IMG/VR virus record: IMGVR_UViG_2547132269_000011
Location: 1 to 7,675 of that record
Reading direction: 5' to 3' (one strand)
Origin: a virus
Lineage: Duplodnaviria > Heunggongvirae > Uroviricota > Caudoviricetes
DNA: 7,675 bases
Shown here in pieces: positions 1 to 7,675 of this stretch. Positions within the stretch are counted from its first letter, which is position 1, and the number at the start of each line of letters is the position of its first letter. The position numbers and the translations under genes are program-made. The notes under the pieces are model-generated. The model saw nothing but the letters and a program-made list of their open reading frames with translations. It searched no databases and was not told where the DNA came from.

Positions 1-1212
1 GTGGCAAGAACGACACGCCCCCTGACCAACACAGAAGTTCTGCGCGCTAAAGCGTTAGAAAAGGATCTAACGTTACATGATGGCGATGGCCTTTTTCTGC
101 TCGTTAAAACGAACGGTAAGAAGTTGTGGCGTTTCCGTTATCAACGTCCAGCAACAAAACAGCGGACAATGATGGGGCTTGGTGCTTTCCCCGCCCTTTC
201 ACTTGCTGATGCTCGACGGTTAAGAGCGGATTACCTTGCTTTGTTGGCTAATGGTATAGACCCACAAGTTCAAGCTGAATTTATCGAAGAACAACAACAG
301 ATAGCTCTAGACAGTATTTTTTCGACTGTTGCGACCAACTGGTTCCAGATAAAAAGCAAAAGCGTTACCCCTGATTACGCTAAAGATATATGGCGCTCAC
401 TGGAAAAAGACGTATTCCCTGCCATCGGGGAGATTCCTGTCCAGCAAATAAAAGCCCGAACACTAGTTGAAGCCCTTGAGCCAATCAAAGCTCGTGGAGC
501 ACTCGAGACAGTGCGCCGACTTGTACAGCGCATTAACGAGATAATGATTTATGCCGTAAACACTGGTCTGATTGATGCCAATCCAGCATCAGGTGTTGGG
601 ATGGCCTTTGAAAAGCCCAGAAAACAAAACATGCCGACGCTGAGGCCAGAAGAATTACCAAAGCTGATGCGTTCTTTGTTCATGTCAAATCTGTCTGTTC
701 CGACTCGCTGTCTCATTGAATGGCAGCTTCTGACTCTAGTGCGTCCTGCTGAAGCTTCCGGTGCTCGATGGGCAGAGATCGATCTCGATGCAAAGCTCTG
801 GATGATTCCAGCCGAACGGATGAAGGCCAAACGAGAGCACATAGTTCCTTTATCCACGCAGGCATTAGAAATTCTAGAAGTGATGCAACCTATTAGCGCA
901 CATCGTGAGCATGTTTTCCCAAGCAGAAATGACCCTAAACAACCAATGAATAGCCAGACTGCGAATGCCGCGCTTAAGCGCATTGGTTATGGTGGGAAGC
1001 TTGTTGCTCATGGATTACGTTCTATAGCAAGTACAGCACTAAATGAAGCTGGTTTTAATCCGGACGTAATTGAAGCGGCACTTGCTCACAGTGATAAAAA
1101 TGAAGTTCGAAGAGCATACAATCGTTCAACTTACCTTGAACAACGTATAGACTTGATGAATTGGTGGGGTGAATTTGTGCACAACCGCCACCGCCTCATG
1201 CAAGCGATTTAA
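1..1212 (+). CDS. int: P4-family tyrosine integrase (site-specific recombinase); the 5' end may be clipped by the window edge
   Basis: 403-codon ORF from a GTG at position 1 to TAA at 1210-1212. N-terminal arm-binding-type region (LTNTEVLRAKALEKD...DGDGLFLLV...ANGIDP) and C-terminal catalytic motifs typical of tyrosine recombinases (AHGLRS H-x-x-R box; RAYNRSTY with the candidate catalytic Tyr). Sits at the element edge, as P4-like integrases do next to a tRNA attachment site. Confidence 0.9.
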   Translation: MARTTRPLTNTEVLRAKALEKDLTLHDGDGLFLLVKTNGKKLWRFRYQRPATKQRTMMGLGAFPALSLADARRLRADYLALLANGIDPQVQAEFIEEQQQIALDSIFSTVATNWFQIKSKSVTPDYAKDIWRSLEKDVFPAIGEIPVQQIKARTLVEALEPIKARGALETVRRLVQRINEIMIYAVNTGLIDANPASGVGMAFEKPRKQNMPTLRPEELPKLMRSLFMSNLSVPTRCLIEWQLLTLVRPAEASGARWAEIDLDAKLWMIPAERMKAKREHIVPLSTQALEILEVMQPISAHREHVFPSRNDPKQPMNSQTANAALKRIGYGGKLVAHGLRSIASTALNEAGFNPDVIEAALAHSDKNEVRRAYNRSTYLEQRIDLMNWWGEFVHNRHRLMQAI

Positions 1213-1239
1213 TAAGATTGCACAGCAAAGGAGTCTTAA

Positions 1240-2578
1240 ATGCCAAATAACTACCATCAATACATCGAAGACGTTAGTGATGATATAAAGACATGTCTTG
1301 AAGGAATGGGATGCCAACCCATACTTTTTGTTGGATCGGGATTAACCAAGAGATATCTTTCTGGCCCAAACTGGGAAGAACTTCTTCAGCAACTTGCTAA
1401 TGAATGTCCTAACATCGATAAAAGATTTGCCTATTATAAACAGAAATACCCCGAGTTGATTGATATCGGCAGTGTATTTTCTGATTCTTATAACGAGTGG
1501 GCATGGGGTGATGGAGAGAAAGAATTTCCAGCAGAGTTATTTGATGCAGGCAATGAGCCAAGTATTTATTTTAAATACAAAGCATCTAGTATTTTCAACT
1601 CATTGTTACAAGAAAAAGAAATCGTAAACAACGGTGAAATTGAACTTCTGAGAAAGATTCACCCTCATTCAATCATCACAACAAATTACGACAAATTACG
1701 ACAAATTACTTGAATCGATATATCCTGAGTTTACCCCCATTATAGGCCAAAAAATCCTTTACGCTAATCACGGTAGCATTGGTGAAATACTTAAAATACA
1801 TGGTTGCTGCTCCACTCCTGAAAGCATAATAATAAACCGCGATGACTACGATGACTTCATAAAGAAGAAGAAATATTTAAGCGCAAAACTGCTTACTTTC
1901 TTTGCTGAACACCCTCTTCTATTTATAGGTTACAGCGCAGAAGACTCGAACATAAAAAACATACTATCTGATATTGATGAACTACTTTCAGAAAATGGAG
2001 ATGTCATTCCAAATATATACATTTTAGAATGGACGAGCAAACAAAATGAAAGTGAATACCCACGCCGTGAACGGCTGATTCAAGTATCTGCAAATAAAAG
2101 CATTAGAATAAAAAGTATAGTAGCAAATGACTTCTCTTGGGTATTTTCAGCGTTTGGCGCGAACAGAGCACTTGATAACATAAATCCAAAATTATTGAGG
2201 GCACTTTTAGCTCGCACTTACGATCTCGTCAGAACTGATATACCTCGCAATCCTGTCCAAGTTGATTACCGAGTTTTATCAAGCATTAGCGAGTCAGAAG
2301 GTGAATTAGCGAAATTATATGGTATCGCCACATCGTCAGATGGTATGGCATTTAATGCCAGTTATCCTTTTACTTTAACCACGCTAGGGCAATCACTTGG
2401 TTTCAAAGGCTGGCATGATGCGAACAAACTATTAGAAGTAGTTAAAAACATCACGAACGTAGACATCAAGACATTCGATAACAAATACCACTATGCAATA
2501 ATGAACGGTGATGAGATTCAGTCCCATAGATATTCAAACTATCTTCGAGAACTCCTCGAAAAGGTTAGGGATGGATAG
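1240..2578 (+). pseudogene. SIR2-like (SIR2_2 / ThsA-DSR-type NAD+-dependent) candidate antiphage gene, interrupted by a +10 bp frameshift; repaired product about 442 aa
   Basis: ATG at 1240 with AAGGAG 6 nt upstream. Frame 1 gives 157 aa with a Gly-rich loop (PILFVGSGLTKRY) and ends ...IITTNYDKLRQIT* at 1711-1713. Frame 2 is open without stops from 1712 to 2578 and continues the domain (ESIYPEF...KIHGCC...LLFIGYSAEDSN...). Deleting one 10-bp unit joins them as ...ITTNYDKLLESIYPEF.... The Asn motif and the His motif fall on opposite sides of the shift. Visibly AT-richer than the flanking P4 core genes. Confidence 0.75.
1681..1710 (+). repeat. Three tandem copies of the 10-bp unit ACAAATTAC(G/T); two copies are coding-native, the third is the frameshifting insertion
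   Basis: Sequence acaaattacg acaaattacg acaaattact at 1681-1710. 10 is not a multiple of 3, so the extra unit shifts frame 1 into frame 2 and creates the TGA at 1711-1713. Confidence 0.9.
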
Positions 2579-2637
2579 GAGTTTGAGTTAGGAATAAAGG
2601 CTCCATAATTATTCATATAGCCTTACTACTTTTTATG

Positions 2638-2659
2638 GCCGCTTTAATAGCGGCTTTTT
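2638..2659 (+). terminator. Candidate intrinsic terminator downstream of the SIR2-like gene
   Basis: Stem GCCGCT (2638-2643) / AGCGGC (2649-2654), loop TTAAT, followed by TTTTT (2655-2659); 60 bp after the cargo stop codon. Confidence 0.5.
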
Positions 2660-2795
2660 CACAGCATTATTCATGCTTCTAGCACGATATGATGAACCGC
2701 AATAATCATAGCTAACAGGATTAATTTAAAGCATTACTCCTCGACTGAAGCGTGCTGTCATGCGAAAAAAATTTAAACTACCACGTTAGCGCGCA

Positions 2796-2814
2796 GTGCT
2801 TTCCCCGCCTCGCC
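2796..2814. other. cos: P2/P4-type cos cohesive-end sequence (reverse complement of GGCGAGGCGGGGAAAGCAC)
   Basis: The plus strand reads GTGCTTTCCCCGCCTCGCC at 2796-2814, an exact reverse complement of the 19-nt P2/P4 cohesive end as I recall it. Its position just beyond the 3' end of psu matches P4 organisation. Confidence 0.75.
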
Positions 2815-2860
2815 CGCACGCTTTGCGGGGCGGTTTTAATGCAGTTGCACTGACACGCTC

Positions 2861-2886
2861 AGACCGCGCCGGGAATGGCGCGGTCT
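2861..2886. repeat. Perfect 10-bp inverted repeat with a 6-nt loop near cos; possible packaging or protein-binding element
   Basis: AGACCGCGCC (2861-2870), loop GGGAAT, GGCGCGGTCT (2877-2886). No U-tract follows on either strand, so it is not a classical terminator. Confidence 0.4.
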
Positions 2887-2916
2887 GCAGAAAATGAGGC
2901 AGGGAAACGCATGCAA

Positions 2917-2948
2917 AGCCATGCACCTTATCGATGCATGGCTTTTTT
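2917..2948 (+). terminator. Candidate intrinsic terminator between the cargo/cos region and the convergent psu gene; may act in both directions
   Basis: Stem AGCCATGCA (2917-2925) / TGCATGGCT (2935-2943), 9-nt loop, then a T-run to 2948. On the minus strand it is preceded by an A-run and followed by a partly U-rich stretch, 30 bp past the psu stop. Confidence 0.45.
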
Positions 2949-2978
2949 CAGTAAAAACAGGCGGATTTTCGGGAAATT

Positions 2979-3551
2979 TTACACAGACTGACGTGATGCC
3001 AGTTGCGCACTTTTACGCGAAAAAATCATGTTCTGCGCAGGGGTGAATTTTTCACGGCTGTCGTCCACCGAAGCCGCGTCAGGCCTGAATCTGATGGTCG
3101 TTAAAATGTCGCTATCCTGTGCGGAATAATTAATTTTTTCACCCTTCGCAAGCCAGGACAGAAGGGCTTCACGCAGGGCATCTGTGGCACGCTGTATGGC
3201 ACAGTTTCGGGCAATGGCCGTCAGCTCACTGTAGCCCATCAGCTCCGGTGCCAGTGCCGCCGCCAGTGCTGTGCCGTGCTGCTGCATAAAATCATTCAGC
3301 CGGTCGCGGATGCTGATGTGCTGAACGGCTTCATGCGAACGAATATAACGACCGGCGGCCTGATTCACCTGCCATTTTCTGACTTCGATAATATTGCGTA
3401 ATTCGTCCAGGCGACTGACGTTTCTGCCTTCTCCTGACAGAAGCCGCAGATATTCCTGTTCGGCCGCAGCCAGCTCATTTTTGCGTTGCAGCCATGCTGC
3501 TTTGTTATTCTGACAGGTGTCAAAGGCCTGCTGTAAGGCTGTGCTTTCCAT
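2979..3551 (-). CDS. psu: Psu, polarity suppression protein (Rho antagonist / capsid decoration), 190 aa
   Basis: 190-aa ORF beginning MESTALQQAFDTCQNNKAAW..., which I recognise as near-identical to phage P4 Psu. Last gene of the sid-delta-psu block and ends next to cos. Confidence 0.92.
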   Translation of the reverse strand: MESTALQQAFDTCQNNKAAWLQRKNELAAAEQEYLRLLSGEGRNVSRLDELRNIIEVRKWQVNQAAGRYIRSHEAVQHISIRDRLNDFMQQHGTALAAALAPELMGYSELTAIARNCAIQRATDALREALLSWLAKGEKINYSAQDSDILTTIRFRPDAASVDDSREKFTPAQNMIFSRKSAQLASRQSV

Positions 3552-3624
3552 CGTTATCTCTTTCTCATCATGCTGAAGAATAAAAATACGGTGTGTGGCG
3601 ACGGCCGGTGTTAACCGGCAGCCC

Positions 3625-4125
3625 TCATTCCAGACGCAGCGAATATGATTGTGTTTTTAACCGTACTGGCGGCAGTTCCTGTTTTTCATGCAGGCGTTCT
3701 GCCAGTTCGTCCGGCGTGACCGGGCGGACAATGAAGCGGGTGATGGTCTGAAGCGTTTTAAACACCAGACCACAGCCCGGATCCGTGCACACATAAAAAC
3801 GCTCGGTGACTTCCTGAGACAGACGCCGCGATGTTCTTGACAGCGCAAGGCCTTTACATCTCCGACAACAATATCCGGTAACAAGCATTCTTTTCGGGCG
3901 CTTCATGCTGCCGGAGGCTGACGTCAGTGAATCGCGGTATCTCTGTTTGCCTGAAATGTATTCCATTCCTGAATCTTTACAGTCAGAGAAAAAGCTTTCA
4001 CTCGCTTCAAATGTCGCAGAGCAATAAATATTCCGGCACTGTGCAATCATTATCTTGGTGCCATCGTCCATGAAATGTGCGCGACGGGTGTGAGCAACAT
4101 GTCCACACGACGGGCAGTAAATCAT
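3625..4125 (-). CDS. delta: Delta, late-gene transcriptional activator with two Ogr-like zinc-finger domains, 166 aa
   Basis: The ORF track gives 185 aa from 4182, but the internal Met (MIYCPSCGHVAHTRRAHF...) gives 166 aa, the length I recall for P4 Delta, and its ATG (4125-4123) overlaps the sid stop (4124-4122) as ATGA. Two Cys-rich Ogr-type motifs (CPSCGH...C..C and CCRRCKG...CTDPGCG). Confidence 0.88.
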   Translation of the reverse strand: MIYCPSCGHVAHTRRAHFMDDGTKIMIAQCRNIYCSATFEASESFFSDCKDSGMEYISGKQRYRDSLTSASGSMKRPKRMLVTGYCCRRCKGLALSRTSRRLSQEVTERFYVCTDPGCGLVFKTLQTITRFIVRPVTPDELAERLHEKQELPPVRLKTQSYSLRLE

Positions 4126-4856
4126 GACAGCAGTCCTCTGGCCTTCAGCTCTGCTCCCTGCTGGTCTATTTTGTCCTGCCACACCTTGCGCTGTGCCGGT
4201 GTGCCTGCCACCTCATAATCCATGTGCGGGAGTGTTGCCGCTGACAGTCCGGTCAGCCGGAGAACCGGCTCGCCGGTGAGGCTGATTTGCATCTGTTTAA
4301 TTTTCTGTTCCAGCGATGATTTCACCTGCTGCATGACAGCCTTTTCCGGTGCGACGTAGCCCTGATGGCCGGTGGTGTTGGCGAGCGGATTTTCCTGTAC
4401 CAGAATGCTCAGATGCATTGCCCGGACAAGCGCCTCACAGGTTTCATTCAGGGCGTGTTCCAGCTCATGCTCTGCATACAGACTCAGAAGGTGATGATGT
4501 GCCTTCCGGTAGGCGGTGGCCGTGCTGTCACACGCCCCTTTCAGGCGTTCACGTTCGAAATTCAGCACCACGGCCAGATTGTCATATTCCTGTACCAGCT
4601 CCCGGCGTGCCACGCGCTCAATGTGGCGCTGTTTCAGCTCGTCGCTCAGGACACCACCGGCTGCACGAAAGGCCGTGCGCCAGTCGTCAGCGTCGTTTCC
4701 GTCGGCCTGCGTCAGCGCATTTTTTTCCTGCTCTGCCCGTTCAATGGCCGTGACGGTCTCATCCATCAGGCGGGCGTTCTCAAGATGAGCGGCTCTGGCC
4801 TTTTCCAGTTGTGCCAGTGCGGGTTGCAGATATTCAGGGATGGTGTTGTCAGACAT
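4122..4856 (-). CDS. sid: Sid, external scaffold / capsid size determination protein, 244 aa
   Basis: The track ORF is 266 aa from 4922. The internal start MSDNTIPEYLQPALAQLEKA... at 4856 gives 244 aa, the length I recall for P4 Sid, and has a GGAG Shine-Dalgarno (reverse complement of 4863-4866) upstream. Coupled to delta by the ATGA overlap. Confidence 0.9.
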   Translation of the reverse strand: MSDNTIPEYLQPALAQLEKARAAHLENARLMDETVTAIERAEQEKNALTQADGNDADDWRTAFRAAGGVLSDELKQRHIERVARRELVQEYDNLAVVLNFERERLKGACDSTATAYRKAHHHLLSLYAEHELEHALNETCEALVRAMHLSILVQENPLANTTGHQGYVAPEKAVMQQVKSSLEQKIKQMQISLTGEPVLRLTGLSAATLPHMDYEVAGTPAQRKVWQDKIDQQGAELKARGLLS

Positions 4857-4928
4857 TTTCCGGCTCCTCGTCACTTCAGGTTGAGAAAATTGTGACGTAC
4901 ACCGGACAGCAACACGACGCATTGCAGA

Positions 4929-4946
4929 TGTGCCAGCCCTGACACA
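4929..4946 (-). promoter_or_regulatory. Candidate Delta/Ogr-binding dyad (TGT-N12-ACA) for the sid late promoter
   Basis: TGT (4929-4931), 12 nt, ACA (4944-4946), centred about 81 bp upstream of the sid ATG. P2/P4 late promoters carry this dyad near -55. Pattern match only. Confidence 0.35.
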
Positions 4947-5025
4947 GGAGACTCATCCTCAGACCGGCAAGCCAGGAAAAGGTCGCAGGAAAAACCGGCT
5001 TACTGTTTGTTTTTTTATATTTTAC

Positions 5026-5129
5026 TGTTCACCTCTGTTCACCATAAGAAAAAAGATAAGTAATACAGTAAGTTAAAGGGTGAACAATCGCAGTGATGAC
5101 TGTTCACCGTCTGTTCACCACTGTTCACC
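5026..5129. repeat. crr: Cluster of six TGTTCACC octamer iterons (P4 crr/ori-type alpha-binding repeats)
   Basis: TGTTCACC at 5026-5033, 5036-5043, 5101-5108, 5112-5119 and 5122-5129 on the plus strand, and one inverted copy (GGTGAACA) at 5079-5086, mostly at about 10-bp spacing, flanked by AT-rich DNA. It lies between sid and the early operon, where P4 has its cis replication region. Confidence 0.7.
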
Positions 5130-5287
5130 CGTTGATGGGCTTTTTATGCTGTTTATTACTGTTTATTTTTATTAATTAACTGAAATAAATAAGAAAAAAC
5201 AATTTGCATTTCACTATAAAAAACTCCAGGTCCTTCAGAACCCTTTGAGACCCTTCCAGTCTGGATGGATAAAAAACACACAGCCAT

Positions 5288-5305
5288 TGTAAGGTTGCCG
5301 GAACA
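5288..5305 (+). promoter_or_regulatory. Candidate Delta/Ogr-binding dyad (TGT-N12-ACA) for a PLL-like late promoter upstream of vis
   Basis: TGT (5288-5290), 12 nt, ACA (5303-5305), about 110 bp upstream of the vis ATG. Pattern match only. Confidence 0.3.
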
Positions 5306-5407
5306 AATTCCCCCTGTTGCGTCTGCTGAAAATATTCACAAAATAAAGCGCTACCCGAAGCCGGACGGACTTATCCGGTGCTGTATGGACATTAACGAGG
5401 TAGCCCG

Positions 5408-5674
5408 ATGCAAGCTGTTTTTTCTTCCCCGTCTCCCGCCCCTGTTACGCCACTGATGCCGCTGCCGGACATCACGCAGGAGCGTTTTTTACGTCTGCCG
5501 GAAGTGATGCACCTGTGCGGCCTGTCACGCTCGACCATCTATGAACTCATCCGTAAGGGGGAATTTCCGCCGCAGGTGAGTCTTGGCGGTAAAAATGTGG
5601 CCTGGCTGCACTCTGAAGTCACCGCATGGATGGCCGGACGCATTGCCGGACGCAAACGGGGGTACGACGCATGA
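5408..5674 (+). CDS. vis: Vis / AlpA-family helix-turn-helix regulator, 88 aa
   Basis: 88-aa ORF with GAGG 7 nt upstream of the ATG. Contains the AlpA-type motif [48 protein letters not shown]. Length and position (between the late and early promoters) match P4 vis as I recall it. Confidence 0.75.
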
Positions 5675-5709
5675 TGATGCCCGCTCTGCAAAAAGTCCCT
5701 TTTTCTGGC

Positions 5710-5739
5710 TTGCCTTTTTCCGGCATTTGCGGATATAGT
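5710..5739 (+). promoter_or_regulatory. Candidate sigma70 promoter (PLE-like) driving the immunity/early operon
   Basis: TTGCCT (5710-5715), 18-nt spacer, TATAGT (5734-5739), just downstream of vis and about 30 nt upstream of seqA. A 5' stem-loop GCTGCCG/CGGCAGC follows at 5746-5765. Confidence 0.45.
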
Positions 5740-5769
5740 TTTTCCGCTGCCGCAAAATCGGCAGCCGGG

Positions 5770-5794
5770 CGTAGGAACCCGTGTAACTCGAAGG
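5770..5794 (+). promoter_or_regulatory. seqA-like target site for the immunity RNA
   Basis: CGTAGGAAC (5770-5778) and CTCGAAGG (5787-5794) recur in the same order at 6013-6021 and 6046-6053. Both blocks are complementary to blocks in 5967-5987. Confidence 0.55.
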
Positions 5795-5929
5795 CGACAT
5801 ATGACGCGCCATGCGTCTTTTTTTGTGTCGCAATCAACGCCACAGAGCGCCAGATTATGGTGTGGCGTGTGGTTTGCCGTGCAGGTATGATCCTGTTCGC
5901 AATCGCATGTTATGCCACTGAGTCAATGG

Positions 5930-6010
5930 TAGCTCAGGCGGGGCAGCCTCCGGGCTGGCCGGTATTCTTCGAGGCCGGTATTCCTACCCCCGTCTGGGCT
6001 ATCGCCATCG
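5930..6010 (+). ncRNA. cI: P4-type CI immunity RNA region containing seqB; exact ends not determinable from sequence
   Basis: CTTCGAG (5967-5973) and TTCCTAC (5981-5987) are antisense to the CTCGAAG and GTAGGAA blocks of seqA and seqC. Local hairpin CAGCC/GGCTG at 5944-5957. The position between the two target sites matches the P4 immunity architecture. Confidence 0.45.
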
Positions 6011-6012
6011 AG

Positions 6013-6055
6013 CGTAGGAACTCCGGCGATAGCAGTTATTTGCTACTCGAAGGAG
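6013..6055 (+). promoter_or_regulatory. seqC-like target site for the immunity RNA, overlapping the kil ribosome-binding site
   Basis: CGTAGGAAC (6013-6021) ... CTCGAAGGAG (6046-6055). The GAAGGAG Shine-Dalgarno for the ATG at 6064 lies inside the target, so RNA pairing would occlude translation initiation. Confidence 0.55.
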
Positions 6056-6063
6056 ACTGCCTT

Positions 6064-6261
6064 ATGGCTACAACCCTTACCCCTTCACACCCTGAATTTG
6101 TCTTTGTGTTTGCGGCTGTCCGTCGCGCAGACCGTCATCCCCGTATCTGCATGCTTCGCACCGTCGCCGGTGATGAACGCAGCGCCCGCCGTTCCCTTGT
6201 CCGTGACTATGTGCTCTCCCTTGCTGCCCGTCTGCCGGTGGTGGAGGTGTCCCGTGCGTAA
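6064..6261 (+). CDS. kil: Kil-like small protein, 65 aa, first translated gene of the early operon
   Basis: ATG at 6064 with GAAGGAG 8 nt upstream, 65 codons, stop at 6259-6261. Length and placement immediately after seqC match my recollection of P4 kil. The protein sequence itself was not recognised independently. Confidence 0.55.
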
Positions 6262-6541
6262 TAAAAAAGCCCCTCAGACCGTCTCAGCACGTCATGACGC
6301 CCGTGAACACCTCAGCATTGAGGCTTACCATAAGCTCAACCGCGCCAGCGCCGTATCCCAGTTTGTTGGGGGTGATTTGATTCACCGTGAACTCTCCGGC
6401 CTGCATCAGCTCTACATTCCGCATATTTTCAGCTACCTGAATGAAGATATTGATTTTGTGCTGAATGAGCTGAAAGCCAAAGGCCTGTGCCGCGATTTTC
6501 TCGCCCAGCAGAAAGACCGGGGAGACAAGACGCATGTTTGA
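6254..6541 (+). CDS. Hypothetical P4-like early protein, 95 aa, GTG start
   Basis: GTG at 6254 preceded by GGAGGTG. The track ORF 6098-6541 begins further upstream but that extension overlaps kil in another frame. Stop overlaps the start of the next ORF. Confidence 0.5.
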
Positions 6542-6914
6542 TTTTCCCCAGCCCGGTGAGATTTACCGTTCTGCCGGTTTTCCCGATGTGGCCGTGGTCG
6601 GCATTCTGGAAGACGATATTCCGTGGGAAATGCCGTACCGCTGCCCGGACATTGTCTGGAATCCGTACCGCCGTAAATTCAGTATCCTTGTGCGTATCCT
6701 CGCTGACGGGCGCACCACAGACATCCCGCTGGGGCGTTTTCTGCGGGAATTTACCTGTGACCGTCCTGACCTGTTCAAACGCAGCCCCGTAAACCGGCAT
6801 GCGGTACTGAAAGAAATGGCCGGAGACCCGGAATTACAGAAATGGCGGGAAATTCCCCGCACGGAGCCTGACCCGGAAACCACCCCGGATAACAGTTACC
6901 GCAATTATCTGTAA
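6534..6914 (+). CDS. Hypothetical P4-like early protein, 126 aa
   Basis: ATG at 6534 overlaps the upstream stop (ATGTTTGA), which suggests translational coupling. GGGGAGA lies about 10 nt upstream. No recognisable domain. Confidence 0.6.
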   Translation: MFDFPQPGEIYRSAGFPDVAVVGILEDDIPWEMPYRCPDIVWNPYRRKFSILVRILADGRTTDIPLGRFLREFTCDRPDLFKRSPVNRHAVLKEMAGDPELQKWREIPRTEPDPETTPDNSYRNYL

Positions 6915-6987
6915 TTAAAAAACGACACCCGAAAAATTAAATGTGCGTATTCGCGCAGGGATACGCACGTCTTCAGGAGACGCAGAT

Positions 6988-7053
6988 ATGCCTTATCAGT
7001 TAATGCAACCGGCACGGAATGCAGTCATCTGTCACAGGGAGGAAAGCAAATGA
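6988..7053 (+). CDS. Possible 21-codon leader ORF coupled to the next gene
   Basis: ATG at 6988 with AGGAGA 7 nt upstream; its TGA (7051-7053) overlaps the ATG at 7050 as ATGA. Preceded by a hairpin GTGCGTAT/ATACGCAC at 6943-6968. Too short to support on sequence alone. Confidence 0.2.
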
Positions 7054-7370
7054 AAACACCCTTACCGCCCGTCTTACGCGCAGCCCTTTACCGTCGCGCT
7101 GTCGCCTGTGCCTGGCTGACCGTGTGCGAACGTCAGCACCGCTACCCGCATCTCACCCTTGAATCACTGGAGGCGGCCATCGCCGCTGAGCTGGAGGGCT
7201 TTTATCTGCGCCAGCACGGTGAGGAAAAAGGGCGTCAGATAGCCTGTGCCCTGCTGGAAGATTTAATGGAATCCGGCCCCCTGAAGGCCGCGCCGTCGCT
7301 GTCCTTTCTCGGGCTGGTTGTGATGGATGAACTCTGTGCCCGTCACATAAAAGCGCCGGTACTGCACTGA
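7050..7370 (+). CDS. Hypothetical P4-like early protein, 106 aa, immediately upstream of alpha
   Basis: ATG at 7050 with GGGAGG 6 nt upstream. Same strand and tight spacing with the alpha start. Confidence 0.6.
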
Positions 7371-7384
7371 AGGAGAACAACACC

Positions 7385-7675
7385 ATGAAAATGAACGTAA
7401 CCGCCACCGTCAGCCATGCGCTCGGCCACTGGCCGCGTATTCTCCCGGCGCTGGGGATTCAGGTGCTGAAAAACCGTCATCAGCCCTGTCCGGTCTGTGG
7501 CGGGAGTGACCGCTTCCGTTTTGATGACAGGGAGGGGCGCGGCACCTGGTACTGCAATCAGTGTGGTGCCGGTGACGGCCTGAAACTGGTTGAAAAGGTG
7601 TTTGGTGTTTCCCCGTCCGACGCGGCCGCAAAGGTGGCTGCCGTGACCGGCAGCCTGCCACCGGCTGACCCGGCA
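7385..7675 (+). CDS. alpha: Alpha primase/helicase, N-terminal zinc-ribbon region; 3' end beyond the window
   Basis: ATG at 7385 with AAGGAGA upstream. Translation MKMNVTATVSHALGHW...CPVCGGSDRFRFDDREGRGTWYCNQCGAGDGLKL carries a CxxC...CxxC zinc ribbon typical of P4-type primases. Open to the last base of the window. Confidence 0.85.
   Translation, partial: MKMNVTATVSHALGHWPRILPALGIQVLKNRHQPCPVCGGSDRFRFDDREGRGTWYCNQCGAGDGLKLVEKVFGVSPSDAAAKVAAVTGSLPPADPA

What the first reader, a model, noticed from the sequence alone, without database searches (positions are those of the whole stretch)
2796..2814. cos site places the cargo exactly in the P4 gop/beta/cII position
The exact 19-nt cohesive-end sequence lies between the cargo gene and psu. 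The cargo is therefore in the int-cos interval and would be packaged and mobilised with the satellite. The organisation int - one cargo gene - terminator - cos is compact.
Basis: partly seen in the sequence, partly recalled or inferred. Interest (0 to 1): 0.45.

Follow-up and report, generated by a model that had tools for sequence, protein, structure and literature searches.

The report
P4 satellite cos beside defence slot
The 19-base sequence is the DNA-packaging cut site of a P4-like phage satellite, and the gene next to it sits in the satellite's already published swappable anti-phage gene slot, although in this copy that gene is broken.

Summary
Observation confirmed. Window 2796..2814 (minus strand) is the exact P2/P4 cohesive-end 19-mer GGCGAGGCGGGGAAAGCAC. 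It is unique in the window and in the surrounding 20-kb contig, even with 3 mismatches allowed. It lies inside a ~60-nt core (2789..2849) shared with P2-type helper phages. The two ends of the linear P4 record meet exactly at it.

Interpretation supported. The interval from the int stop to cos (1213..2788) corresponds to P4 nt 31..2606 (gop/beta/cII). Related satellites carry at least five unrelated cargos there.

This is already published. Rousset et al. 2022 describe the psu-int hotspot next to cos. They list this very cargo protein (SIR2_2, WP_001133507) and cloned it as pFR88, which is in their table of tested but unvalidated systems.

Two corrections:
- The "one cargo gene" is a pseudogene here. 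An extra 10-bp unit (array 1681..1709) shifts the frame after codon 153, upstream of the catalytic His184. A second lesion, E443* at 2576, follows.
- Packaging follows from lying inside the att-bounded element (ssrA to beyond alpha, ~10.4 kb). It does not follow from lying between int and cos.

The integrase is not P4's (36% aa identity) and it targets ssrA. The host is not E. coli (flank 91% identical), yet the satellite is ~99% identical to E. coli copies.

The parts
1..1212 (+). Tyrosine integrase with arm-binding domain. It is of the ssrA-targeting type, not the P4 leuX type.
   Evidence: Pfam Arm-DNA-bind_3, Phage_int_M and Phage_integrase. 35.6% aa identity to P4 Int and no DNA similarity. 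Lies directly after the tmRNA gene in L004 and L002. 99.9% identical to the E. coli copy in L002.
1240..2608 (+). Cargo: pseudogene of a single-gene SIR2_2 protein (PADLOC candidate PDC-S25; intact allele 452 aa, WP_001133507). As it stands it is split into 1240..1713 (157 aa) and a start-less +1 frame that runs to 2578.
   Evidence: The repaired ORF hits PF13289 SIR2_2 at 4e-27 and PDC-S25 at 1.5e-83. The intact allele is in 7 of 5,426 E. coli genomes. The SIR2 domain aligns with DSR2, ThsA and KomC.
1681..1709 (+). Tandem array of ACAAATTACG, 2.9 copies. Intact alleles have 1.9 copies. The extra 10 bp shifts the frame after codon 153, within the TTNYDKL motif, giving a stop at 1711..1713.
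   Evidence: TRF; alignments with L002; translation. The same allele is in the independent assembly L005. Catalytic His184 (aligned to DSR2 H171) lies downstream of the shift.
2576..2578 (+). Second lesion: TAG where intact alleles have GAG (E443*). It removes the last 10 codons; the ancestral stop is TAA at 2606..2608.
   Evidence: The relic copy in L007 also keeps Glu at this position.
2637..2660 (+). Intrinsic-terminator-like hairpin (GGCCGCU/AGCGGCU) followed by a U-run, about 30 nt after the ancestral cargo stop.
   Evidence: RNA fold -11.9 kcal/mol, z = -4.1, 0 of 200 shuffles as stable. Not listed by the consensus scan.
2789..2849 (-). cos core shared by P4-like satellites and P2-type helper phages: GCGCGCA + 19-mer + CGC(A)CGCTTTGCGGGGCGGTTTTAATGCAGTTGCA.
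   Evidence: Alignment A1 of 8 satellites with P2, pro147 and YpM50. Megablast to P2-type phages covers 2788..2853, or up to 2861 in pro147, at 88-94% identity. Agrees with the 55-bp cos core of Ziermann & Calendar 1990 as cited in PMC5694545 and PMC2231350.
2796..2814 (-). The 19-nt cohesive-end sequence GGCGAGGCGGGGAAAGCAC. Inferred staggered nicks at 2795/2796 (+ strand) and 2814/2815 (- strand).
   Evidence: Exact and unique. Equals P4 nt 1-19, and the P4 right end (11624) abuts window 2815. The nick positions are inferred from the ends of the P4 record, not measured.
2858..2887 (-). Strong GC hairpin between cos and psu. Conserved in all satellites compared but not in the helpers.
   Evidence: -24.4 kcal/mol, z = -5.1; alignment A1. 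Function not determined.
2910..2945 (-). Hairpin just downstream of psu, with T/A runs on both sides (terminator-like on both strands).
   Evidence: -21.5 kcal/mol, z = -5.1; conserved in satellites.
2979..3551 (-). psu (capsid decoration / polarity suppression), 190 aa.
   Evidence: Pfam Psu 1e-86; 98.9% identical to P4 Psu over the full length.
3625..4125 (-). delta (Ogr/Delta zinc-finger transactivator), 166 aa.
   Evidence: Pfam Ogr_Delta; 97.6% identical to P4 Delta over the full length.
4122..4856 (-). sid (capsid size determination), 244 aa.
   Evidence: 99.2% identical to P4 Sid over the full length.
5408..5674 (+). orf88 / alpA-type regulator.
   Evidence: 98.9% identical to P4 ORF88; PF05930 Phage_AlpA in L004.
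5733..6009 (+). Immunity RNA region: c4-a1b1 targets (5733..5785), isrK (5746..5823) and C4 antisense RNA (5922..6009). I take the C4 hit to be the P4 CI RNA equivalent; that equation rests on my own knowledge.
   Evidence: Rfam hits above gathering score.
6254..7675 (+). epsilon (6254..6541), orf151-like (6534..6914), orf106 (7050..7370) and the first 291 nt of alpha primase (7385..7675; full length in L004).
   Evidence: tblastn with P4 proteins: 97.9%, 82.8%, 100% and 99.0% identity.

Best explanation
The window is the left two-thirds of an integrated P4-like satellite of about 10.4 kb. It sits at the 3' end of ssrA in a non-coli Escherichia-like host.

After excision and circularisation, a P2-type helper's terminase should recognise the ~55-60-bp cos core (2789..2849) and make staggered nicks around the 19-mer (2796..2814). 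That gives a linear molecule whose left end starts with the cargo slot, just as gop/beta/cII occupy nt ~20-2600 of mature P4 DNA.

The interval between the int stop and the cos core is the published P4 defence hotspot, where cassettes are exchanged by recombination between the conserved int and cos-psu flanks. The cassette here is a single SIR2_2 gene with its own terminator. By homology it is a predicted NAD+-consuming abortive-infection effector.

In this copy the gene is dead. Slippage between two 9-10-bp direct repeats added a third ACAAATTACG unit, which shifts the frame upstream of the catalytic His. A later nonsense change (E443*) followed.

Shown here: sequence identity, synteny, conservation, the gene lesions and the element boundaries. 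Inferred: terminase cleavage, mobilisation, NADase function and the order of the two lesions.
For: - Exact, unique 19-mer.
- The P4 record ends meet at 2814/2815, and homology crosses the junction.
- The core is shared with the helper phages P2, pro147 and YpM50 and with satellites carrying five different cargos. Conservation ends 7 nt from the 19-mer on the cargo side.
- 2,226 of 5,426 E. coli genomes match the cos-psu flank, but only 7 match the cargo.
- All P4 core genes are full length, most at 98-100% identity. The immunity RNA is present.
- The element is bounded by ssrA and a 56-nt repeat, giving ~10.4-10.5 kb. This is within the 5-11 kb known to package in P4 capsids (PMC2231350).
- Host flank 91% versus satellite 98.6-100% identity to E. 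coli copies, which points to recent inter-species transfer.
- Cargo identity and lesions.
- Literature: PMC9122126 describes the hotspot, states that gop/beta/cII occupy it in P4, lists WP_001133507 and cloned it as pFR88. The de Sousa & Rocha preprint (10.1101/2021.03.30.437493) reports 1-9 genes between int and psu and says the region includes cos.
Against: - No experiment here shows cleavage or transduction.
- The window and its closest E. coli relative have A at 2818, where every other satellite and helper compared has C. This is 4 nt from the 19-mer, inside the core, and its effect on terminase recognition is unknown.
- attR is degenerate (84% over 56 nt), so excision competence is not proven.
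- The intact cargo gave no protection in the published phage panels (Table S2B of PMC9122126), so its defence role is inferred only from domain homology.
Confidence: 0.9

Rival explanations
1. The element is a decaying, immobile prophage remnant. The 19-mer is a fossil cos that no longer functions, so the cargo is not mobilised.
For: The cargo is a pseudogene. attR is only 84% identical to attL over 56 nt. There is one unusual base (A2818) in the cos core. The orf151-like and cI-region ORFs are only ~82-83% identical to P4.
Against: Every hijacking and replication gene is full length; int, psu, delta, sid, alpA, epsilon, orf106 and alpha have no frameshift. The cos core otherwise matches the helpers. 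The element is 99-100% identical to copies in E. coli while the host flank is 91%, which indicates recent horizontal movement. The A2818 variant is shared by the E. coli copy, so it has travelled too.
Confidence: 0.08
2. The 10-bp insertion is a sequencing or assembly artefact and the cargo gene is really intact.
For: The insertion lies in a short tandem repeat, a context in which assemblers occasionally err.
Against: The exact 157-aa truncated product is called on 5 contigs. These include a Logan assembly of SRR8358079 and the independent GenBank assembly GCA_027566395.1, whose coordinates differ by an indel elsewhere. A clean 10-bp unit gain is not a typical short-read error. A second lesion (E443*) is present in the same lineage.
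Confidence: 0.03
3. The 10-bp repeat is a reversible slippage switch (phase variation) that turns a costly NADase defence gene off and on.
For: The frameshift arises by gain of one unit between pre-existing direct repeats and could revert by loss of a unit. The same cargo is also inactivated by an IS5-family insertion in another strain and reduced to a relic in others, which would fit a costly gene.
Against: Only two states were seen: 2 units in 7 E. coli genomes and one cryptic-clade Escherichia, and 3 units in the window lineage. Two to three units is far fewer than in known contingency loci (my own knowledge). The additional E443* change means that reversion would not restore the ancestral protein.
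Confidence: 0.05

Closest known systems
Phage satellite P4 (NC_001609 / X51522): cos and the non-essential gop-beta-cII region
   Same: Identical 19-nt cohesive end. Homology is continuous across the joined ends. The order is the same: int - slot - cos - psu - delta - sid - alpA - immunity RNA - epsilon - orf106 - alpha. The core region (window 2815..7675) is 97% identical in DNA.
   Different: The slot holds one SIR2_2 (pseudo)gene of 1.37 kb in place of gop, beta and cII; the slot measures 1,583 bp against 2,587 bp in P4. The integrase is only 36% identical, and the element is integrated at ssrA. In my own knowledge P4 integrates at leuX. The element is ~10.4 kb against 11.6 kb.
P4-like defence hotspot between psu and int, adjacent to cos (Rousset et al. 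2022, PMC9122126; de Sousa & Rocha 2021/2022)
   Same: Same locus, same flanks and the same logic of cassette exchange. This very protein (WP_001133507, 'SIR2_2') is listed at least 21 times in their Table S1A. The gene was cloned from E. coli M605 as pFR88, starting within the same int 3' end.
   Different: The copy here is frameshifted and truncated, and it sits in a non-coli host. The published tests of the intact gene did not validate defence (Table S2B).
SIR2-domain NADase defence effectors (ThsA of Thoeris, DSR2, KomC; PADLOC candidate PDC-S25)
   Same: SIR2_2 fold signature. The TTNYD Asn and the His aligned to DSR2 H171 are present in the intact allele.
   Different: Single 452-aa protein with an uncharacterised C-terminal ~150 aa. 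There is no SLOG domain and no partner gene in the slot. Similarity to the solved proteins is confined to the SIR2 domain (E = 1e-10 to 1e-6). No activity has been shown.
cos-proximal cargo replacement in P2/186-type prophages (Dodd & Egan 1996, retrons Ec67/Ec86; P2 hotspot in Rousset 2022)
   Same: A variable cassette is bounded on one side by the shared cos core, and a transcription terminator lies on the cargo side (reference seen).
   Different: Those cases are in the helper phages (between gpA and gpQ), not in the satellite.

Membership tests
P2/P4-type cos site | 19-nt cohesive-end sequence GGCGAGGCGGGGAAAGCAC | tested here: met
   Exact match at 2796..2814 on the minus strand; unique; 0 of 200 shuffles give a match; equals P4 nt 1-19.
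P2/P4-type cos site | ~55-bp core shared between satellite and helper phages around the 19-mer | tested here: met
   Window 2788..2853 is 88-94% identical to P2-type phages. Alignment A1 shows the shared core at 2789..2849, with one lineage-specific base, A2818. The 55-bp core is cited.
P2/P4-type cos site | Syntenic position: downstream of psu, facing the int-proximal non-essential region | tested here: met
   The P4 right end (psu side) abuts 2815 and the P4 left end runs into the cargo side.
P2/P4-type cos site | Cleavage by P2-family terminase and packaging of the element | not testable with these tools
   Needs helper infection and end-mapping. The only indirect support is ~99-100% identity of the element between hosts whose flanks are 91% identical.
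P4-like satellite (seven core components of de Sousa & Rocha) | [quoted passage not shown] | tested here: met
   All are found full length in P4 order in the window and L004. Alpha is complete only in L004 because the window ends 291 nt into it.
P4 defence hotspot cargo (Rousset 2022) | Located between int and psu next to cos, and variable between otherwise homologous elements | tested here: met
   Five unrelated cargos were found between the same flanks. 2,226 genomes share the cos-psu flank and 7 share the cargo.
P4 defence hotspot cargo (Rousset 2022) | Confers anti-phage protection | not testable with these tools
   The published test of the intact allele (pFR88) is listed under 'additional tested systems', not under validated ones. 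The copy in this window is disrupted.
SIR2_2 / PDC-S25 NADase-type effector | SIR2_2 domain with the catalytic Asn (TTNYD) and His | tested here: met
   For the repaired or intact allele: PF13289 at 4e-27, PDC-S25 at 1.5e-83, and His184 aligned to DSR2 H171.
SIR2_2 / PDC-S25 NADase-type effector | Intact open reading frame in this window | tested here: not met
   The extra 10-bp unit causes a frameshift after codon 153 and a stop at 1711..1713. There is also E443*.

The most novel reading that the evidence does not exclude
This SIR2 cargo may be recurrently lost in nature. It is seen here inactivated in three independent ways: a slippage duplication in the window lineage, an IS5-family insertion in strain MEI4BO-21, and an N-terminus/C-terminus relic beside a replacement cargo in at least 9 E. 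coli genomes. That would be a counter-example to the recent claim that P4 hotspot defences are swapped 'without pseudogenization' (PMC13586616). In the most adventurous version, the 10-bp repeat would be a reversible off-switch for a costly NADase.
Probability: 0.12. Interest if true: 0.4.

Novelty: already known. Interest (0 to 1): 0.15.

Why it matters
The cos call anchors the annotation of the whole element. It shows where the mature linear genome begins and where the exchangeable defence slot ends, 7 nt from the cohesive end. None of this is new: the hotspot, its adjacency to cos and this particular cargo protein are all in the literature.

The small additions are these:
- A naturally pseudogenised hotspot defence gene sits inside an otherwise intact satellite. 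The 2026 NAR survey (PMC13586616) reports that fewer than 1% of P4 pseudogenes resemble defence genes.
- There is evidence that this satellite crossed between Escherichia species.
- SIR2 relics remain beside a replacement cargo, which records a cassette exchange.

Tried and rejected
1. Using P4 to delimit the replaced segment on the int side failed. The integrase shares no detectable DNA similarity with P4 int. I used ssrA-type relatives instead. These showed that the first ~75 nt and the last ~70 nt of a SIR2 gene can survive a cargo replacement.

2. A second candidate cos was rejected. This is the 14-nt partial match GTGCTTTCCCCGCC at 182..195 inside int. It encodes G-A-F-P-A, varies synonymously in relatives, is absent from P4 int, and lacks the flanking core.

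3. The consensus terminator scan did not list the cargo terminator. Folding showed it clearly.

4. I looked for homology between the cargo and gop/beta/cII and found none.

5. I tried to name the host. The flank is 91% identical to all E. coli. The species-representative scan found only an intact two-unit allele in Escherichia sp. MOD1-EC7003.

6. A literature search for PDC-S25 gave no functional study.

7. Several fetched loci did not appear in the Python sandbox, so their alignments were done with DNA alignment.

8. I did not run the large protein searches or structure prediction, because the verdict does not depend on the cargo's C-terminal domain.

Full report
**1. The observation.** Window 2796..2814 reads GTGCTTTCCCCGCCTCGCC on the + strand. 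Its reverse complement, GGCGAGGCGGGGAAAGCAC, is nt 1-19 of the phage P4 record. It is the only site in the window within 3 mismatches, and none of 200 dinucleotide-preserving shuffles gives a match. The same holds for the 20,474-bp contig L004, which contains the window exactly at 8762..16436.

**2. Is it the functional-type cos?**
- Megablast against 50,697 phage records aligns window 2815..7675 to P4 11624..6679 at 97% identity, so the right end of the linear P4 record abuts the 19-mer exactly.
- A sensitive blastn against circularised P4 shows the alignment running unbroken through the joined ends. Window 2785..2814 equals P4 30..1, and homology stops 11 nt beyond the 19-mer.
- P2-type helper phages (P2, pro147, 9W, 10W, Yersinia YpM phages, Salmonella STYP1) match only window 2788..2853, or up to 2861 in pro147, at 88-94% identity.
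- I aligned eight satellites carrying five different cargos with three helpers (A1). They share a core of GCGCGCA + 19-mer + CGCCCGCTT..GGGGCGGTTTTAATGCAGTTGCA, which is window 2789..2849.
- On the cargo side, conservation ends 7 nt from the 19-mer. Beyond that there is only a loose A-rich patch at about 2763..2775.
- This agrees with the 55-bp cos core of Ziermann & Calendar 1990, as cited in PMC5694545 and PMC2231350.
- One base differs. The window and its closest E. coli relative have A at 2818 where all others have C. Its significance is unknown.
- Some other satellites have variant 19-mers: one mismatch in L009, and ATGCTCCCCCCGCCACGCC in L011/L012. From memory, the latter resembles the phage 186 cohesive end. 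The window's 19-mer is the exact P2/P4 type.

**3. The surroundings.** All P4 core genes are present, full length and in P4 order.

| Gene | Length | Identity to P4 |
|---|---|---|
| psu | 190 aa | 98.9% |
| delta | 166 aa | 97.6% |
| sid | 244 aa | 99.2% |
| orf88 / alpA | 88 aa | 98.9% |
| epsilon | 95 aa | 97.9% |
| orf106 | 106 aa | 100% |
| alpha (complete in L004) | 777 aa | 99.0% |

- Rfam finds the C4 antisense RNA and its targets at 5733..6009. I take the C4 hit to be the P4 CI immunity RNA equivalent; that equation rests on my own knowledge.
- The integrase (1..1212) is a different lineage from P4 Int: 35.6% aa identity and no DNA similarity.
- In the window's contig and in E. coli relatives the element lies directly after the tmRNA gene ssrA.
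- A 56-nt repeat (84% identical) covering the ssrA trailer/terminator recurs downstream of alpha. This bounds an element of about 10.4-10.5 kb.
- P4 is packaged from monomeric closed circles cut at cos, and molecules of 5-11 kb fit P4 capsids (PMC2231350).

**4. The slot.** The interval between the int stop (1212) and the 19-mer (2796) is 1,583 bp. It corresponds to P4 nt 20..2606, which holds gop, beta and cII. The cargo has no similarity to those three proteins.

- In 5,426 complete E. coli genomes, 2,226 match the cos-psu flank but only 7 match the cargo.
- Sampled elements carry other cargos in the same place:
  - a 294-aa unknown protein on the opposite strand (ssrA integrase);
  - an ATP-dependent nuclease plus UvrD helicase (tRNA-Thr integrase);
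  - an AAA ATPase (tRNA-Sec integrase);
  - a reverse transcriptase plus a partner protein.
- It is also exactly what Rousset et al. 2022 (PMC9122126) published. They describe a hotspot between psu and int, adjacent to cos, with more than 300 gene arrangements in 5,251 loci, and they state that gop/beta/cII occupy it in P4.
- de Sousa & Rocha report 1-9 genes between int and psu, frequent integrase exchange and near-identical elements across genera.

**5. The cargo.**
- Removing one 10-bp unit restores a 442-aa ORF. It has a SIR2_2 domain (PF13289, 4e-27) and a best PADLOC match to the candidate family PDC-S25 (1.5e-83).
- The intact allele in E. coli is 452 aa (WP_001133507).
- Its SIR2 domain aligns with the defence effectors DSR2, ThsA and KomC. 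The TTNYD motif is conserved, and His184 aligns with DSR2 His171, the residue changed in the PDB entries named H171A.
- Rousset's Table S1A lists this protein at least 21 times.
- Their Table S2B lists the gene as pFR88, cloned from E. coli M605 from within the same int 3' end. Table S2B holds the 'additional tested systems'; the validated ones are in S2A. A defence function is therefore predicted but unproven.

**6.
- The cargo is a pseudogene here. TRF finds ACAAATTACG in 2.9 copies at 1681..1709, while intact alleles have 1.9 copies.
- The extra unit shifts the frame after codon 153 and gives a stop at 1711..1713, upstream of His184.
- The same allele occurs on 5 contigs, including two independent sources (SRR8358079 and GCA_027566395.1), so it is not an assembly artefact.
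- A second lesion, GAG to TAG at 2576 (E443*), removes the last 10 codons. The other three substitutions are V115A and two synonymous changes.
- The cargo has decayed in other ways elsewhere. An IS5-family element (ISKpn26) interrupts it in strain MEI4BO-21.
- In the ssrA-type elements whose cargo is the 294-aa protein, a relic remains right after int. It joins the first 24 codons to the last 22 codons of a SIR2 homologue (E = 2e-11 and 8e-9).
- PMC13586616 reports that fewer than 1% of P4 pseudogenes resemble defence genes, so this is a minor counter-example.

**7. Mobility.**
- The host flank (nadK-recN) is 91.0% identical to every one of 5,426 E. coli genomes. The host is therefore a different Escherichia-like species.
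- Against the E. coli copy, int is 99.9% identical, the cargo-to-psu intergenic region including cos is 100% identical, and the window as a whole is 98.6% identical. This fits recent transfer between species.
The cargo is packaged because it lies inside the att-bounded element. Its position next to cos only determines that it forms the left end of the mature linear DNA.

**8. Terminator and other structures.**
- A hairpin plus U-run at 2637..2660 follows the ancestral stop (2606..2608) by about 30 nt (-11.9 kcal/mol, z = -4.1). This supports the description 'cargo - terminator - cos'. The consensus scan missed it.
- Two further strong hairpins (2858..2887 and 2910..2945) lie between cos and psu. 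They are conserved among satellites but not in the helpers.

**9. Verdict.** The feature is an ordinary, already described part of P4-like satellites. Interest is low. The only mildly notable points are the pseudogenised defence cargo inside an otherwise intact satellite and the relics of cassette exchange.

Noticed in passing
window 1681..1709: ACAAATTACG is present in 2.9 tandem copies, while intact alleles have 1.9. The extra unit frameshifts the SIR2 cargo after codon 153, inside the catalytic TTNYD region. The same allele occurs in two independent assemblies.
   Followed up: yes
window 2576..2578: A second lesion in the cargo: TAG where E. coli alleles and the relic copies have GAG (E443*). 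It shortens the ORF by 10 codons.
   Followed up: yes
L006/L007/L008 about 2641..2814 (E. coli FORC 064, N61, DETEC-P793): Elements with the same ssrA-type integrase but a different, opposite-strand cargo keep a relic of a SIR2 homologue right after int. It joins the first 24 codons to the last 22 codons. In N61 it is annotated as a 57-aa hypothetical protein. It looks like a scar of cassette replacement.
   Followed up: yes
L003 3243..4429 (E. coli MEI4BO-21): An IS5-family element (ISKpn26) is inserted near the 5' end of the same SIR2 cargo. This is a third, independent way in which this cargo is disrupted.
   Followed up: partly
window 182..195: A 14-nt exact copy of the first 14 bases of the cos 19-mer (GTGCTTTCCCCGCC) lies inside int and encodes G-A-F-P-A. 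About 3e-4 such matches are expected from base composition. It varies synonymously in relatives, is absent from P4 int and lacks the cos flanks, so I judge it a coincidence.
   Followed up: yes
window 2818: A where all other satellites and helper phages compared have C, 4 nt from the 19-mer inside the conserved cos core. It weakens the small GC hairpin there. The closest E. coli relative (L002) shares it.
   Followed up: partly
L004 1..8700 (the window's own contig): The host flank (nadK-recN) is only 91.0% identical to all 5,426 complete E. coli genomes. It also carries an extra DUF1706 gene between bamE and the RnfH-family gene (yfjF), and the tmRNA tag reads ANDENYVLAA; from memory the E. 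coli tag is ANDENYALAA. The host is a non-coli Escherichia-like species, yet the satellite is ~99% identical to E. coli copies.
   Followed up: partly
L009 and L011/L012, cos region (alignment A1): Other E. coli P4-like satellites carry variant cohesive-end sequences: one mismatch in L009, and ATGCTCCCCCCGCCACGCC in L011/L012. From memory the latter resembles the phage 186 end. This may reflect adaptation to different helpers.
   Followed up: no
window 5850..5950 and 6841..6852: The cI/ash region and the orf151-like gene are mosaic relative to P4 and to the E. coli copy: ~82-83% aa identity, a 9-bp indel near 5940, and about 63 bp missing relative to P4 7514..7576. In L004 the Ash-family ORF is called as 134 aa, against 196 aa in L005.
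   Followed up: partly
window 2858..2887 and 2910..2945: Two very stable hairpins (-24.4 and -21.5 kcal/mol, z about -5) lie between cos and psu. They are conserved in all satellites compared but not in the helpers. The second looks like a bidirectional terminator after psu. The role of the first is unknown.
   Followed up: partly
window 5025..5167: Short 10-11-bp tandem repeats (CTGTTCACCT / ACTGTTCACC / CTGTTTATTA) lie in the sid-orf88 intergenic region, which corresponds to the region annotated as the origin of replication in P4.
   Followed up: no
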